A stretch of 63,300 nucleotides of DNA, the filler included, from Octopus bimaculoides (lineage: Eukaryota), in the NCBI RefSeq assembly GCF_001194135.2. It is 7 parts of 6 records of this genome, joined end to end, with 100 filler letters (N's around TTAATTAATTAA, not from the genome) between each part and the next. Parts side by side here need not be neighbours in the genome. Positions count along the whole stretch, not along the records: positions 1 to 8,930 come from NC_069006.1; positions 9,031 to 23,822 come from NC_068982.1; positions 23,923 to 43,131 come from NC_068986.1; positions 43,232 to 49,730 come from NC_068989.1; positions 49,831 to 53,993 come from NC_068986.1; positions 54,094 to 59,577 come from NW_026315691.1; positions 59,678 to 63,300 come from NC_069003.1. One strand, 5' to 3'. The notes beneath the pieces are model-generated. The model saw only the letters and a program-made list of their open reading frames with translations. It was not told the DNA's origin and did not search any database. A program made the position numbers and the translations under genes. Below, piece after piece: positions 6,071 through 60,572 of this stretch (positions within the stretch are counted from its first letter, which is position 1; every line of letters begins with the position of its first letter).

Positions 6071-6165
6071 TTATGCAGCTGAGGAGTACATTTTCATTGT
6101 ATTTTCTGTAGTGTTATCACTACATGAATAAATGGAGCTTGTACGAAACGTACGTACTGCTATAA
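6071..6165 (+). ncRNA. Type I hammerhead ribozyme motif with palindromic helix III
   Basis: Helix I TTATGCAG (6071-78) / CTGC-T-ATAA (6157-65); core CTGAGGA (6079-85); helix II GTACA/TGTAC with an internal TGTAGTG-TTAT-CACTACA hairpin; GAAA (6145-48); helix III ACGTACGT; cleavage triplet GTA (H17=6156). Confidence 0.85.
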
Positions 6166-6848
6166 CCTATTGAATTTTTGTTGCATAACTTTNNNNNNNN
6201 NNNNNNNNNNNNNNNNNNNNNNNNNNNNNNNNNNNNNNNNNNNNNNNNNNNNNNNNNNNNNNNNNNNNNNNNNNNNNNNNTTTTGCACTTTCTTTCGCAT
6301 TTATGTACTTACTCTGGTGTGTATGTGTACACACACACACACACACATCAGTTTGTTAAACTTCTTGAACTGCCATTATGACATTTCCTTCGCTACTTCT
6401 TCAAATAATACAATCGTTTGAATAATCGGAATCGTGGAGCTCAAAAAAAAAGTAAATAAATAAAAGATAGAATTTGGATGAAATATGGATTCAAAAATTT
6501 TTAGCTTGCGATACCATACACGAAATCTACATCATGCATCGAATGATTATATATACTGCGATCAACGTTTGTCTTCAAATATTTTCAACATTACCCTTAT
6601 ACACACACACACAAACACACGCATACCTACATACACGTTTATATGTGTGTGTGTGCGTGCGTGTGCATGCATGTATGTATGTTTACTTGTGTGTTTATGA
6701 GATAATACTTTTTCACGTATCCCATTATAAATTGGAACTTTTCCATATCCGTTCTTGTTATTCACTATTCTTATACTTATTTCTTCTTTTTGTTACCATC
6801 ATCACCGCGGCCACCACGACCATCATCATCAACACCATCCTCATCACT

Positions 6849-7209
6849 AGTAGTAGTAGTAGTAGTAGTAGTAGTAGTAGTAGTAGTAGTAGTAGTAGTA
6901 GTAGTAGCAGCAGCAGCAGCAGCAGCAGCAGGAGGAAAAGAAGTAGTAGTAGTAGTAGTAGTAGTAGTAGTAGTAGTAGTTGTAATAGTAGTAGTAGTAG
7001 TAGTAGTAGTAGTAGTAGTAGTAGTAGTAGTAGTAGTAGCAGCAGCAGTAGGAGGAGGAGGAGGAAAAGAAGTAATAGTAGAAGTAGTTGTAGTAGTAGT
7101 AGTAGTAGTAGTAGTAGCAGCAGCAGCAGTAGGAGGAGGAGGAAAAGAAGTAATAGTAGTAGTAGTAGTAGTAGTAGTAGTAGTAGTAGTAGTAGTAGTA
7201 GTAGTAGTA
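6849..7209. repeat. Compound trinucleotide array (AGT)n/(AGC)n/(AGG)n with three higher-order units
   Basis: Three cycles of (AGT)n-(AGC)n-(AGG)n, each closed by AAAAGAAGTA. Confidence 0.9.
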
Positions 7210-8451
7210 CCATTATCATTATCATCGTTTTAATTATTATCATCATCATGCTTGTTATTACAGTCATTTTGATTATTATTATTATTATTATTATTATTAT
7301 TATTATTATGTTGCTGGTGTCAGATTTTTTCGTTCTCGAAATATCTGCATTTCATTTGTTTTAGTTTTCATTTGTTTTCTTATTCTCTCTCTCTCTCTCT
7401 CTCTCTCTCTCTCTCTCTCTCTCTCTCTCTCTCTTTCTCTCCCTCTCTCTCTCTCTTTCTCTCCCTCTCTCTCTCTCTCTCATTTTACAGACAAGTTATT
7501 CAGTACATTCTCTGTAAATAACTTGTTGCACCCAGATTGGAAATCATTATATTTACATATATTCCAAAATTCTCCACTGCAGACATGATAAGCTTTTGAG
7601 AGCGAATTTTCTTACTCATGAGAAAGAGTAGACCAAAATATATCCTTAAAAAATATTGCTTTAAAACAATACGTCACGTATTTGAATACGTATCATATTT
7701 CATTGTATTAGAAATCACATTAAATATATTATTATTATTATTATTATTATTATTATTATTATTATTATCATTATCATTATTATTATTATTTCATTACTAT
7801 TCTTGTTATCATTTATATTATCACTCATATGGTTATTACGGGTATAGTTGGTTATTATTATTCTTATTGGTGTTGCTGTTTATATTATTGTTATTTGAAA
7901 TATTTTTTTATGCATCATGACTTCGGAATAATTTAAACAGAGGATCACGTGAACAAACTCCATTCCCAACGATCAATACGCTCCACTCCCAATACACAAA
8001 TCATGCATTCAAAAATATACATATGTATAAAAATATGAAAGGGAAAATATACAAATGTATATAGATACACACCCATCTATTTACATGTTGGGAATCCAAC
8101 CAGTCTTTTCGCTATTGATATAAAGAGTACTGTTGGTTTATGCTATTAATTAGGCTTTAAATTCATAGTTTGAATAACATTTTATGCCCGCAGAACAAAG
8201 CAACTGTCCAAGTAGTGTTTCCTGTTGGCTAGTAGATATTTATAGAAGATATTTCCGAAGTTTCATCTACAGTATTCATGTATATATATATATATATATA
8301 TATATATATATATATATTGACTTCTAGGTATGCCACTACTAAGTTTGTAAATATTGTTACTTTCGTGCCCATTGCAATTGCAGGTATGTAGGATTTGTCG
8401 TTAAACTTAAAAACTTATTTTCTTGGGTGGACATTCATTCTTCAAAGTTAA

Positions 8452-59200: not shown

Positions 59201-59415
59201 TTGGTGTAATGTGTATACGCGTGTGTATATGCATATACACACACAAACACACACACACATATATATGTATATATATGTGTGTGTATGTGTGTGTGCGAGT
59301 GTGTGTGTATACACACATACATACATACGCGCACAAACACATAGATTATGTGACTTTCAACGCATTTTTTTTTTATTTATTTATTTATTTATTTATTTAT
59401 TTATTTATTTACCAA

Positions 59416-59518
59416 ACTGCGTAACGTGCGCCGTCGCTGTTAGGGGGCGCAGCTGACGGTGTCTCAGCCGCGTGTCAGCTACTGCTACAACTGAGACTTA
59501 AAATGAGCGGCCATTTTT
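59416..59518. other. Isolated GC/CpG-rich patch with two interleaved 7-bp inverted repeats
   Basis: AGCTGAC (59451-57) / GTCAGCT (59474-80) and GTCTCAG (59461-67) / CTGAGAC (59491-97). Also TAGGGGGCGC and AAAATGAGCGGCCATTTT. Confidence 0.5.
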
Positions 59519-60572
59519 TTTTTTTTTCGTCTGTTCGTTTTTAAGTATTTCCGCCATTTATATACTTTAAACGTGGGNNNNNNNNNNNNNNNNNNNNNNN
59601 NNNNNNNNNNNNNNNNNNNNNTTAATTAATTAANNNNNNNNNNNNNNNNNNNNNNNNNNNNNNNNNNNNNNNNNNNNTATATATATATATATATATATAT
59701 ATATGCATATATATATATATGCATAAATGTAAATATATAGATACAGAGATAAATATATGTATATGCGTGTATGTATGTTTGCATTTCTGTATATGTCTGT
59801 ATATCTCTTAAAACAAATAAACCATGTATACGATGTGTGTATCACAAATACGTATTTTATGTGTGTGTATACGCATATGCATATATGTATATGAATATGC
59901 AATATACATATATATATATGAATATATATATATATATATATGAATATACATACATATATATATATATATATATATAAGAAAAAAATACTATGGTTCACAT
60001 ACACATACACACACACATACATACATACATACATACATACGCTCTTTCAAACGTATATAAGCATACAGTTTTATATATATATCCGTTGTTGAAGTTGAAT
60101 GACTCATTTTTCCCATTTTGCTCTATGTACATGATGTAAGAGAACGTATGTTTACATCAATGGACTGGTTAGCTCTGTTATCTACACCCCAAACATAAAT
60201 ATTCTCAGGAAAAGAAGTGGCGTCAGAAGTTTAAACAGTTAGAAGGTTTTTCTTTCTTCAACGAAAAGGGACCAAAGCGATAGATTAATGCGATGAGGAA
60301 GATGGTGAATCTGGCCTCCTGAAATGGTAAAGAGGTGTTACAGAGCATGAGGTATATTTCCTGCAATTAGAAGCCAGAGATAACGTTTCGGTTCCTGTTA
60401 GAAGCCATTTCACATATATTTTTAATACAAATATATATATATATATATACTACAGTCCCTATCAGTATATATGTATACAATTATGTGCTTGACTACAGCA
60501 TTAGAGCATTTTAGCTCTTATTTCTAGCAATGTAGGTGTTCCTAACACCCTAGTCACATTTAGTGAAACATT

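What the first reader, a model, noticed from the sequence alone, without database searches (positions are those of the whole stretch)
6071..60417. Window-wide set of unrelated hammerhead motifs that all keep a self-complementary helix III
Seen: four intact or near-intact type I hammerheads and several relics, with no primary-sequence similarity outside the catalytic core. In each, the segment from A15.1 to U16.1 is a different perfect palindrome: ACGTACGT (6148), ACTCGAGT (22001), ACCCGGGT (30539-), ACGT (31966-), ACGATCGT (24260), ACATGT (40052-), ACGT (60386-). Established: Penelope-like elements and the retrozymes carry minimal type I hammerheads whose palindromic helix III is completed in dimers. 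Inference: many independent ribozyme-bearing element families, about one intact motif per 15 kb here, with no recognisable Penelope ORF beside them, so possibly undescribed non-autonomous retrozyme-like families. Changing the palindrome sequence while keeping the symmetry is covariation-type evidence, and it could give family-specific dimer pairing.
Basis: partly seen in the sequence, partly recalled or inferred. Interest (0 to 1): 0.88.

Follow-up and report, generated by a model that had tools for sequence, protein, structure and literature searches.

The report
Ribozyme-bearing jumping repeats in octopus DNA
Four hammerhead self-cutting-RNA motifs in this probably-octopus DNA are real, and the three that were tested are worn copies of short non-coding repeat families; two likely belong to a kind already known from mussels and corals, while one very abundant repeat joins a tRNA-like start to a Penelope-type ribozyme end and is likely copied by Penelope enzymes.

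Summary
Four motifs (cores 6079+, 21948+, 30577-, 31997-) are real: 4 seen, 0.03 expected. With palindromy not required, 3 of 3 eight-base hits are still palindromes. Of three 'relics', 24257 is credible; 40052 and 60386 are unproven.

The motifs are of two kinds. Three have canonical animal geometry (2-bp helix III plus palindromic tetraloop). Two of these sit in units of about 389 and 336 nt with head-to-tail repetition, like mussel retrozymes; 6079 was not tested. The fourth is a minimal Penelope-type motif in a 239-bp, extremely abundant element with tRNA-spaced Pol III boxes, a fixed 3' end 58 nt past the cut site, and inverted 3' fragments joined to its 5' end.

Cleavage, circles and the helper enzyme are untested. 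The least-described part is the tRNA-headed Penelope-type element; this scan noted it, and the retrozymes, before on other DNA.

The parts
6075..6160 (+). Type I hammerhead, canonical geometry: helix I 4 bp, core 6079-6085, 59-nt structured stem-loop II, palindrome 6148-6155, A17 at 6156. Family not tested.
21941..22016 (+). Type I hammerhead, canonical geometry: helix I 7 bp, core 21948-21954, helix II 4 bp with A.C opposition at its base, palindrome 22001-22008, A17 at 22009
21697..22038 (+). Partial copy (about 327 of 389 nt) of a head-to-tail repeat unit carrying the 21948 motif; 35% GC; retrozyme-like
   Evidence: (6 of 15 shown joints go back from 22021-22038 to 21697-21710; one has 62 letters between)
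21614..21700 (-). Inverted partial copy of 21767-21853 joined head-to-head to the start of the unit; the whole insert lies between a TG and a TA microsatellite
   Evidence: (score 142, shuffled maximum 35.5)
24225..24273 (+). Probable decayed hammerhead: 5-bp helix I, broken core, palindrome 24260-24267, A17
   Evidence: possible inverted partial copy at 24132-24150 is borderline (score 30, shuffled maximum 31)
30522..30587 (-). Type I hammerhead, canonical geometry: core 30577-30571, helix II 4 bp, palindrome 30539-30532, A17 at 30531; helix I broken at its base in this copy, 7 contiguous pairs with the letters most other copies carry
29320..30702 (-). Retrozyme-like insert of about 336 nt per unit with a terminal direct repeat (29320-29364 and 30657-30701), interrupted by a 993-bp element; runs into an N gap
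29422..30414 (.). Secondary insertion with inverted ends (27 bp, 23 matching) and an 8-bp target duplication (7 of 8 matching)
   Evidence: higher contig depth than the ribozyme part
31904..32142 (-). Very abundant SINE-like element: tRNA-like head, short AAT/AAC tract, minimal hammerhead, 58-nt tail; this copy lacks about 10 nt of the 5' palindrome that other copies have
   Evidence: (depth, loose ends at 31904 and 32142, inverted joints)
32080..32139 (-). Pol III box A and box B at exact tRNA spacing (U8 to G53), with a 7-nt anticodon-like loop; not called a tRNA by ARAGORN or Rfam
   Evidence: (only such site, 0.01 expected)
31957..32002 (-). Minimal type I hammerhead: core 31997-31991, extra A between 9 and 10.1, helix II 6 bp, ACGU with no loop 3, U17 at 31962; an ATG inside the core opens 25 codons that stop near the element's end
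40044..40058 (-). Half-site only (GAAA plus 6-base palindrome); not shown to be a hammerhead relic
60380..60392 (-). Half-site only (GAAA plus 4-base palindrome); not shown to be a hammerhead relic

Best explanation
The four motifs are hammerhead-shaped sequences, and the three tested are worn copies of separate non-coding repeat families that likely spread as RNA with the help of Penelope-type reverse transcriptases. Class 1 (21948, 30577, probably 6079 and relic 24257): non-LTR retrozyme-type units of about 340-390 nt. Shown: repeat families, head-to-tail repetition, intact helix I in other copies. Inferred from mussel and coral retrozymes: read-through RNA with two or more motifs is cut at each GUA, the monomer is closed into a circle by a host ligase and reverse transcribed into partial tandems. 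The palindromic helix III lets two successive motifs of one transcript pair into a double hammerhead, so any change must keep the symmetry; family specificity would be a by-product. Class 2 (31997): a SINE-like element, a tRNA-like Pol III head fused to a Penelope pLTR-type end. Shown: fixed ends, boxes A and B, minimal motif, inverted 3' fragments at the 5' end. Inferred: Penelope RT/endonuclease binds the ribozyme region and starts copying at a fixed site downstream of it, so the ribozyme region acts as a recognition module and cutting does not define the element's ends.
For: Chance excluded. Letters carried by most other copies restore helix I exactly where these copies are broken: 30577 goes from 0 to 7 contiguous pairs (21-34 contigs in X2, 13-21 in X14) and 31997 from 3 to 5 (98% of contig depth, about 95% of RNA reads). 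Unit lengths 389 and 336 nt match mussel retrozymes, 350-390 bp (PMC7229834 section 14). Geometry of both classes matches the definitions in PMC4209133. Penelope footprint: 7 of 15 shown joints join an inverted 3' fragment of variable length to the fixed 5' end at 32142, and the 21948 insert has an inverted partial copy at its 5' end; this layout is described for PLEs in PMC8557442 and PMC3846280, the latter also describing about 200-bp pLTRs with a 5' palindrome, the first ORF codons, and activity in trans. In PMC11167929 (main text) the ORF starts at the hammerhead, RT starts at fixed internal sites downstream, and cleavage is not needed; the 31997 element has an ATG in its core and ends 58 nt past the cut site. 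An Octopus bimaculoides predicted protein begins with an 88% identical version of that short frame, and octopus genomes hold active Penelope families (PMC13282606).
Against: No autonomous Penelope element sharing any of these ends was found: no genome was held, and the protein searches gave no RT-bearing relative. No cleavage or circle is shown: 0 RNA reads over 30522-30608 and at most 1 over the 21948 motif in the 6% of each run that was read, and no pile-up of read ends anywhere. The A.C opposition at 21955 is not among the 40 of 104 variant rows shown, so the family may carry it throughout. The 336-nt unit rests on one 45-bp direct repeat and one inferred insertion. 6079 has no family evidence and no tandem or inverted partner in its flanks. 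ARAGORN and Rfam do not recognise the head as a tRNA. Joints were shown for 15 of 340 and 15 of 82 rows.
Confidence: 0.75

Rival explanations
1. All the motifs are 5'-truncated stumps or solo pLTRs of ordinary autonomous Penelope-like elements; there are no separate non-coding families, and the tRNA-like head is part of one pLTR.
For: PMC4209133 says most motifs are single and probably truncated PLEs. N gaps lie beside 6079, 21948, 30577 and 24257. The 31997 element has pLTR size, a 5' palindrome and an ATG in the core. The Pfam scan is insensitive: it also missed the endonuclease-like frame at 26800-27219.
Against: The 21948 family closes on itself through a 62-nt linker, giving a 389-nt unit with no room for an ORF. 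The 30577 repeat recurs after 336 nt. Hundreds of contigs end at 32142 with a shared 10-nt extension and then disagree (agreement 0.47-0.48), rather than continuing into one shared upstream sequence.
Confidence: 0.15
2. One reading: the different palindromes are a selected family-specific dimerisation code in an active system of circular RNAs.
For: Self-duplexes of the 8-base palindromes score -9.8 to -14.9 kcal/mol, cross-family pairs -0.1 to -5.1, and monomer helix III hairpins +2.4 to +2.9. 3 of 3 unbiased hits are palindromic.
Against: Any palindrome pairs best with itself, so the energies do not show selection for specificity. Most invertebrate type I motifs cleave as monomers (PMC7761336). 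Two of four copies are damaged next to the core. No variant row was shown inside any palindrome, so within-family covariation was not seen (only the top 40 rows of each table visible).
Confidence: 0.08
3. The motifs are chance matches in AT-rich, repeat-rich DNA.
For: Rfam finds none. Short GAAA-plus-ACGT half-sites occur at chance level, 3 against 3.7. This explanation may well hold for 40052 and 60386.
Against: 4 against 0.03; restoring letters in other copies fall on helix I.
Confidence: 0.02

Closest known systems
Metazoan non-LTR retrozymes (Cervera and de la Pena 2020, PMC7229834; parts 2 and 4, section 14 and passages read)
   Same: Canonical type I hammerhead with 2-bp helix III plus tetraloop, non-coding units of 336 and 389 nt (mussel 350-390 bp), GC under 50%, head-to-tail repetition, Penelope proposed as helper.
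   Different: Loop II is long here (stem-loop II of 28-59 nt); copies are scattered partial monomers; one has a Penelope-type inverted arm; circles and cleavage not shown; no cephalopod case came up in my searches.
Minimal hammerheads (min-HHR) in pLTRs of Penelope-like elements (PMC4209133, parts 1-2 of 4 read; Lunse et al. 2017 seen only as a reference title)
   Same: 31997: no loop 3, palindromic 15.2-16.2, extra base between 9 and 10.1, G10.1-C11.1, short helix I, long helix II; many families per genome, mostly single.
   Different: Here the motif is fused to a tRNA-like Pol III head and no ORF is linked.
Poseidon PAc of Anolis and rotifer Penelope insertions (PMC11167929 main text; PMC3846280 and PMC8557442 passages)
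   Same: ATG at the ribozyme, element end at a fixed distance past the cut site, 5' palindrome, inverted 5'-truncated arm head-to-head with the insert.
   Different: Those are autonomous with RT and GIY-YIG; this 239-bp element is not.
Schistosoma Sm-alpha / Sj-alpha SINE-like elements (as summarised in PMC6765202 and PMC8490949, passages; original papers not seen)
   Same: Pol III promoter followed by a type I hammerhead in a short non-coding repeat.
   Different: Sm-alpha is tandem and cut into monomers by its ribozyme, leaving the promoter at the 3' end; the 31997 element has fixed ends away from the cut site, a minimal motif and a Penelope-type inverted arm.
tRNA-derived SINEs (definition in SINEBase, PMC3531059, passages)
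   Same: Under 700 bp, internal boxes A and B, very abundant, more 3' than 5' depth.
   Different: No simple-repeat 3' tail and no LINE-derived end seen; the end is ribozyme-bearing and Penelope-like.

Membership tests
Type I hammerhead ribozyme (four main motifs) | Core CUGANGA, GAAA and NUH in order | tested here: met
   4 of 4
Type I hammerhead ribozyme (four main motifs) | Helices I and II closed at the core | tested here: inconclusive
   Met in 6079 and 31997; helix I of 30577 is met in other copies; 21948 has an A.C opposition whose family state was not shown
Type I hammerhead ribozyme (four main motifs) | Site-specific self-cleavage | not testable with these tools
   No read-end pile-up in fragmented RNA-seq, which cannot decide it
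Non-LTR retrozyme (21948, 30577) | Canonical type I motif in a unit of 150-450 bp | tested here: met
   389 nt and 336 nt
Non-LTR retrozyme (21948, 30577) | Head-to-tail tandem copies | tested here: met
   21948: 6 of 15 shown joints, in two DNA runs. 30577: one 45-bp direct repeat only. Length of arrays unknown.
Non-LTR retrozyme (21948, 30577) | No coding capacity, GC under 50% | tested here: met
   Pfam negative; 35% GC for the 21948 unit
Non-LTR retrozyme (21948, 30577) | Abundant circular RNA of unit length | tested here: inconclusive
   0-1 reads over the motifs in ordinary RNA-seq, 6% of each run read; library selection unknown
Non-LTR retrozyme (6079) | Repeat family with tandem unit | not tested
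   Both read-laying runs were used on other sites; no partner in its flanks
PLE min-HHR (31997) | No loop 3, palindromic 15.2-16.2, extra base between 9 and 10.1, G10.1-C11.1 | tested here: met
   against PMC4209133
Autonomous Penelope-like element | Adjacent ORF with RT and GIY-YIG endonuclease | tested here: not met
   None in 445 frames; gaps and low sensitivity limit this; not filed as autonomous PLE
Penelope-type insertion footprint | Inverted 5'-truncated copy adjacent to the 5' end | tested here: met
   31997 family: 7 of 15 shown joints; 21948 locus:
tRNA-derived SINE (31904-32142) | Internal Pol III boxes A and B at tRNA spacing | tested here: met
   box consensus is recalled
tRNA-derived SINE (31904-32142) | Head traceable to a tRNA | tested here: inconclusive
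   Landmarks in register, but ARAGORN and Rfam negative
tRNA-derived SINE (31904-32142) | Simple-repeat 3' tail and partner LINE | tested here: not met
   3' end is fixed at 31904 with no repeat tail; hence called SINE-like only. Partner not identified.
tRNA-derived SINE (31904-32142) | Transcribed by Pol III as a discrete RNA | not testable with these tools
   81-83% of laid RNA reads run on into other sequence
Sm-alpha-type element | Monomers delimited by the ribozyme cut | tested here: not met
   Copy ends pile at 31904 and 32142, not at 31962/31961

The most novel reading that the evidence does not exclude
A tRNA-headed, SINE-like element has taken the ribozyme-bearing end of a Penelope-like element and spread to thousands or up to about 100,000 copies using Penelope RT instead of a LINE, and retrozyme-type units in the same genome insert with the same Penelope footprint. 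That would give the first SINE-Penelope partnership I could find described and direct genomic support for Penelope as the long-proposed helper of animal retrozymes.
Probability: 0.55. Interest if true: 0.62.

Novelty: new variant of a known kind. Interest (0 to 1): 0.4.

Why it matters
The helper of animal retrozymes has only been proposed (PMC7229834 discussion). A genome in which retrozyme-type units and a Pol III-headed element both carry Penelope insertion footprints makes that testable with the existing in vitro Penelope assay (PMC11167929). If the 31997 element is what it looks like, SINE-like parasites are not tied to LINEs, and a large share of the 'unclassified SINE' content of octopus genomes (893 of 900 recently active SINE families in PMC13282606) may include ribozyme-bearing elements that Rfam misses. 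The palindrome observation itself adds little to what was published in 2014.

Tried and rejected
No whole genome is held, so no genome-wide BLAST or family building. Rfam: 0 hits at gathering score; no hammerhead among the 150 of 339 rows shown at E up to 10 or in the scan of 29990-32560. ARAGORN 0 genes; Rfam no tRNA on 32040-32170. Pfam on 445 frames: no family reached its cut-off; 6 longer and 120 short distant frames of the 571 were not scanned. Exact pattern from the 31997 motif: 0 matches in metagenome contigs. Protein search with the short frame of the element: nothing; HMMER gave 12 hits, none with an RT domain. The endonuclease-like frame at 26800 gave no homologue. No RNA holder was listed among indexed runs. 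Rod-like folding of the units: z-scores -0.28 (31997 element), -1.12 (21948), +0.63 (30577), -2.06 (6079), so no general support. No target duplication above chance around the 31997 copy. No shared sequence among the motif flanks. Weak extra candidates at 17368+ and 12933- and 43309+ were rejected for lack of helices or core. Papers not held: Lunse 2017, Arkhipova 2017, the 2015 octopus genome paper; Ohshima and Okada 1994 on octopus SINEs seen only as a reference. Any of these, their supplements, Repbase or Dfam could already list the element.
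Full report
Setting. The window is AT-rich, 16% N, and dense in microsatellites and short repeats. No genome was held. 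The organism is probably an octopus: an Octopus bimaculoides predicted protein starts with an 88% identical version of a short frame inside the most abundant repeat. This is inference, not a label on the window.

Observation. A type I descriptor returns four complete motifs, cores at 6079+, 21948+, 30577- and 31997-, against 0.03 per shuffled window. Dropping the palindrome rule but fixing an 8-base segment returns 3 hits, all palindromic, against 0.01. So symmetry is a property of the motifs and not of the search. Of the relics, 24257 keeps a perfect 5-bp helix I and an 8-base palindrome around a broken core and is credible. 40052 and 60386 are half-sites that arise in about 3% and 11% of shuffles and are unproven. 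Rfam misses all of them.

Two classes. By the definitions in PMC4209133 (parts 1-2 read), canonical animal motifs have helix II of 4 bp and a 1-2 bp helix III capped by a palindromic loop, while minimal PLE motifs have no loop 3, a longer helix II and an extra base between 9 and 10.1. The three 8-base motifs are canonical; 31997 is minimal. The same paper lists palindromic helix III, many divergent families per genome and mostly single motifs among its results.

21948. Contigs of two runs (X1, X14; two organism labels) show a repeat family over the motif, with 24-41 contigs per variant letter in its best rows. Six of the 15 joints shown (of 82) go back from 22021-22038 to 21697-21710; one, in 4 contigs, has 62 letters between, and loose ends on both sides agree on a linker. 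That gives a 389-nt head-to-tail unit, the size of mussel retrozymes (PMC7229834 section 14). The window copy is partial and carries an inverted partial copy at its 5' end. A change at 21955 that would mend helix II is not among the 40 of 104 rows shown, so the A.C opposition may be general in the family.

30577. Most other copies carry different letters at 30578, 30525 and 30522 (93-100% of depth, 13-34 contigs); with them helix I has 7 contiguous pairs instead of 0. A 45-bp direct repeat at 29320 and 30657, less a 993-bp insertion with inverted ends and an 8-bp target duplication, gives a unit of 336 nt. This rests on one locus.

6079. Intact core, 4-bp helix I and a well-paired 59-nt stem-loop II. 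No tandem or inverted partner in its flanks; family not tested.

31997. Summed contig depth over 31914-32087 is 4-7 million against about 40 in the unique flank. The tool warns that this is no copy number, and short overlapping contigs inflate it, so I read it as thousands to about 100,000 copies. Loose ends pile at 31904 (423 and 456 contigs) and 32142 (394 and 495), the latter with a shared 10-letter extension that completes a short palindrome. The head holds the only box A/box B pair in the window (0.01 expected), with G53 in exact tRNA register; the box consensus is recalled, and ARAGORN and Rfam do not call it a tRNA. The majority letter at 32001 extends helix I from 3 to 5 pairs. Seven of 15 joints shown (of 340) join an inverted 3' fragment of variable length to the fixed 5' end. 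The 3' end lies 58 nt past the cut site, and an ATG in the core opens 25 codons.

Mechanism. Inverted 5'-truncated arms, 5' palindromes, pLTRs of about 200 bp holding the first ORF codons, and action in trans are described for Penelope elements (PMC8557442 and PMC3846280 passages). In the one purified system, the ORF starts at the hammerhead, RT starts at fixed internal sites downstream and cleavage is dispensable (PMC11167929 main text). I infer that the 31997 element presents this region to a Penelope RT. For the canonical units I infer the retrozyme cycle of cutting, circularisation and copying into partial tandems (PMC7229834), with Penelope as the likely helper because of the inverted arm at 21614. 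None of these steps is shown here.

RNA. In raw runs X21 and X22, 9,257 and 7,586 reads lay on 30000-32590, nearly all on the 31997 element, equally in both directions; 81-83% run on into other sequence, so they come mostly from copies inside other transcripts. No place had a pile-up of ends. The canonical motifs had 0-1 reads. About 6% of each run was read and library selection is unknown, so this neither supports nor excludes circles.

Dimer code. Self-duplexes beat cross-family duplexes, as any palindromes would. Most invertebrate type I motifs are reported to cleave as monomers (PMC7761336 passages). I treat specificity as a by-product.

Against my reading. No autonomous partner was found. 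The Pfam scan also missed an endonuclease-like frame, so it is weak. Units do not fold as rods better than shuffles, except 6079 marginally. Most joint and variant rows were not visible.

Novelty. Ten literature searches returned no description of cephalopod retrozymes or of a Penelope-carried SINE; the library lacks most subscription papers, and five look-ups for three key papers failed. Sm-alpha is a precedent for a Pol III promoter plus hammerhead (PMC6765202, PMC8490949 passages). An octopus repeat annotation lists many unclassified SINEs and active Penelope families; its supplement has no mention of hammerheads (PMC13282606 part 1 of 3 and supplement search). I noted the SINE-like reading before consulting earlier scan notes, which report the same element on other DNA; the retrozyme reading of the canonical motifs was prompted by such notes and then tested. 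They are not independent evidence.

Verdict. Observation partly confirmed; the set is a mix of new members of known kinds, with one component that looks like a new variant. Interest 0.4.

Noticed in passing
window 26332-27222 (+): Broken frames that look by eye like the C-terminal restriction-type endonuclease region of an R2/R4-class LINE (label recalled). Pfam and a homologue search gave nothing.
   Followed up: partly
window 28199-28620 (+): Broken frames that look by eye like the 3' coding end of an RTE-class LINE (label recalled); no Pfam support.
   Followed up: partly
window 29422-30414: 993-bp element with inverted ends and an 8-bp target duplication, hAT-like by duplication length (label recalled); a further copy of the end lies at 29771-29791.
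   Followed up: partly
window 21717-21776: A 60-bp part of the 389-nt unit has 5-20 times the contig depth of the rest and palindromic loose ends, so it is shared with a more abundant repeat.
   Followed up: no
window 32175-32560: A separate repeat (depth 1,300-3,900 in X2) with a CUGAGGA and a CGAAAC about 150 nt apart on the minus strand and a GAAA-flanked hairpin on the plus strand; possibly a rearranged or decayed hammerhead.
   Followed up: no
proteins P0002-P0004, P0006-P0008, P0010-P0013: Predicted proteins that look like translations of head-to-tail repeats of about 43 codons of a related ribozyme-and-tail module with other upstream sequence; suggests the module also occurs as short tandem arrays elsewhere.
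   Followed up: partly
window 47250-47626, 47658-47828, 60571-60954, 61887-62075: Four copies, 83-96% alike, of another short repeat family; a second family has many older copies (e.g. 20055-20217, 41502-41617, 56110-56241, 61620-61773, 62747-62949).
   Followed up: no
window 9124-9643, 17373-17616, 48409-48476: Other fold-back structures without a recognisable hammerhead.
   Followed up: no
window 23867-23878 and 43176-43187: The same 12-base AT palindrome sits alone inside two N gaps, probably an assembly spacer.
   Followed up: no
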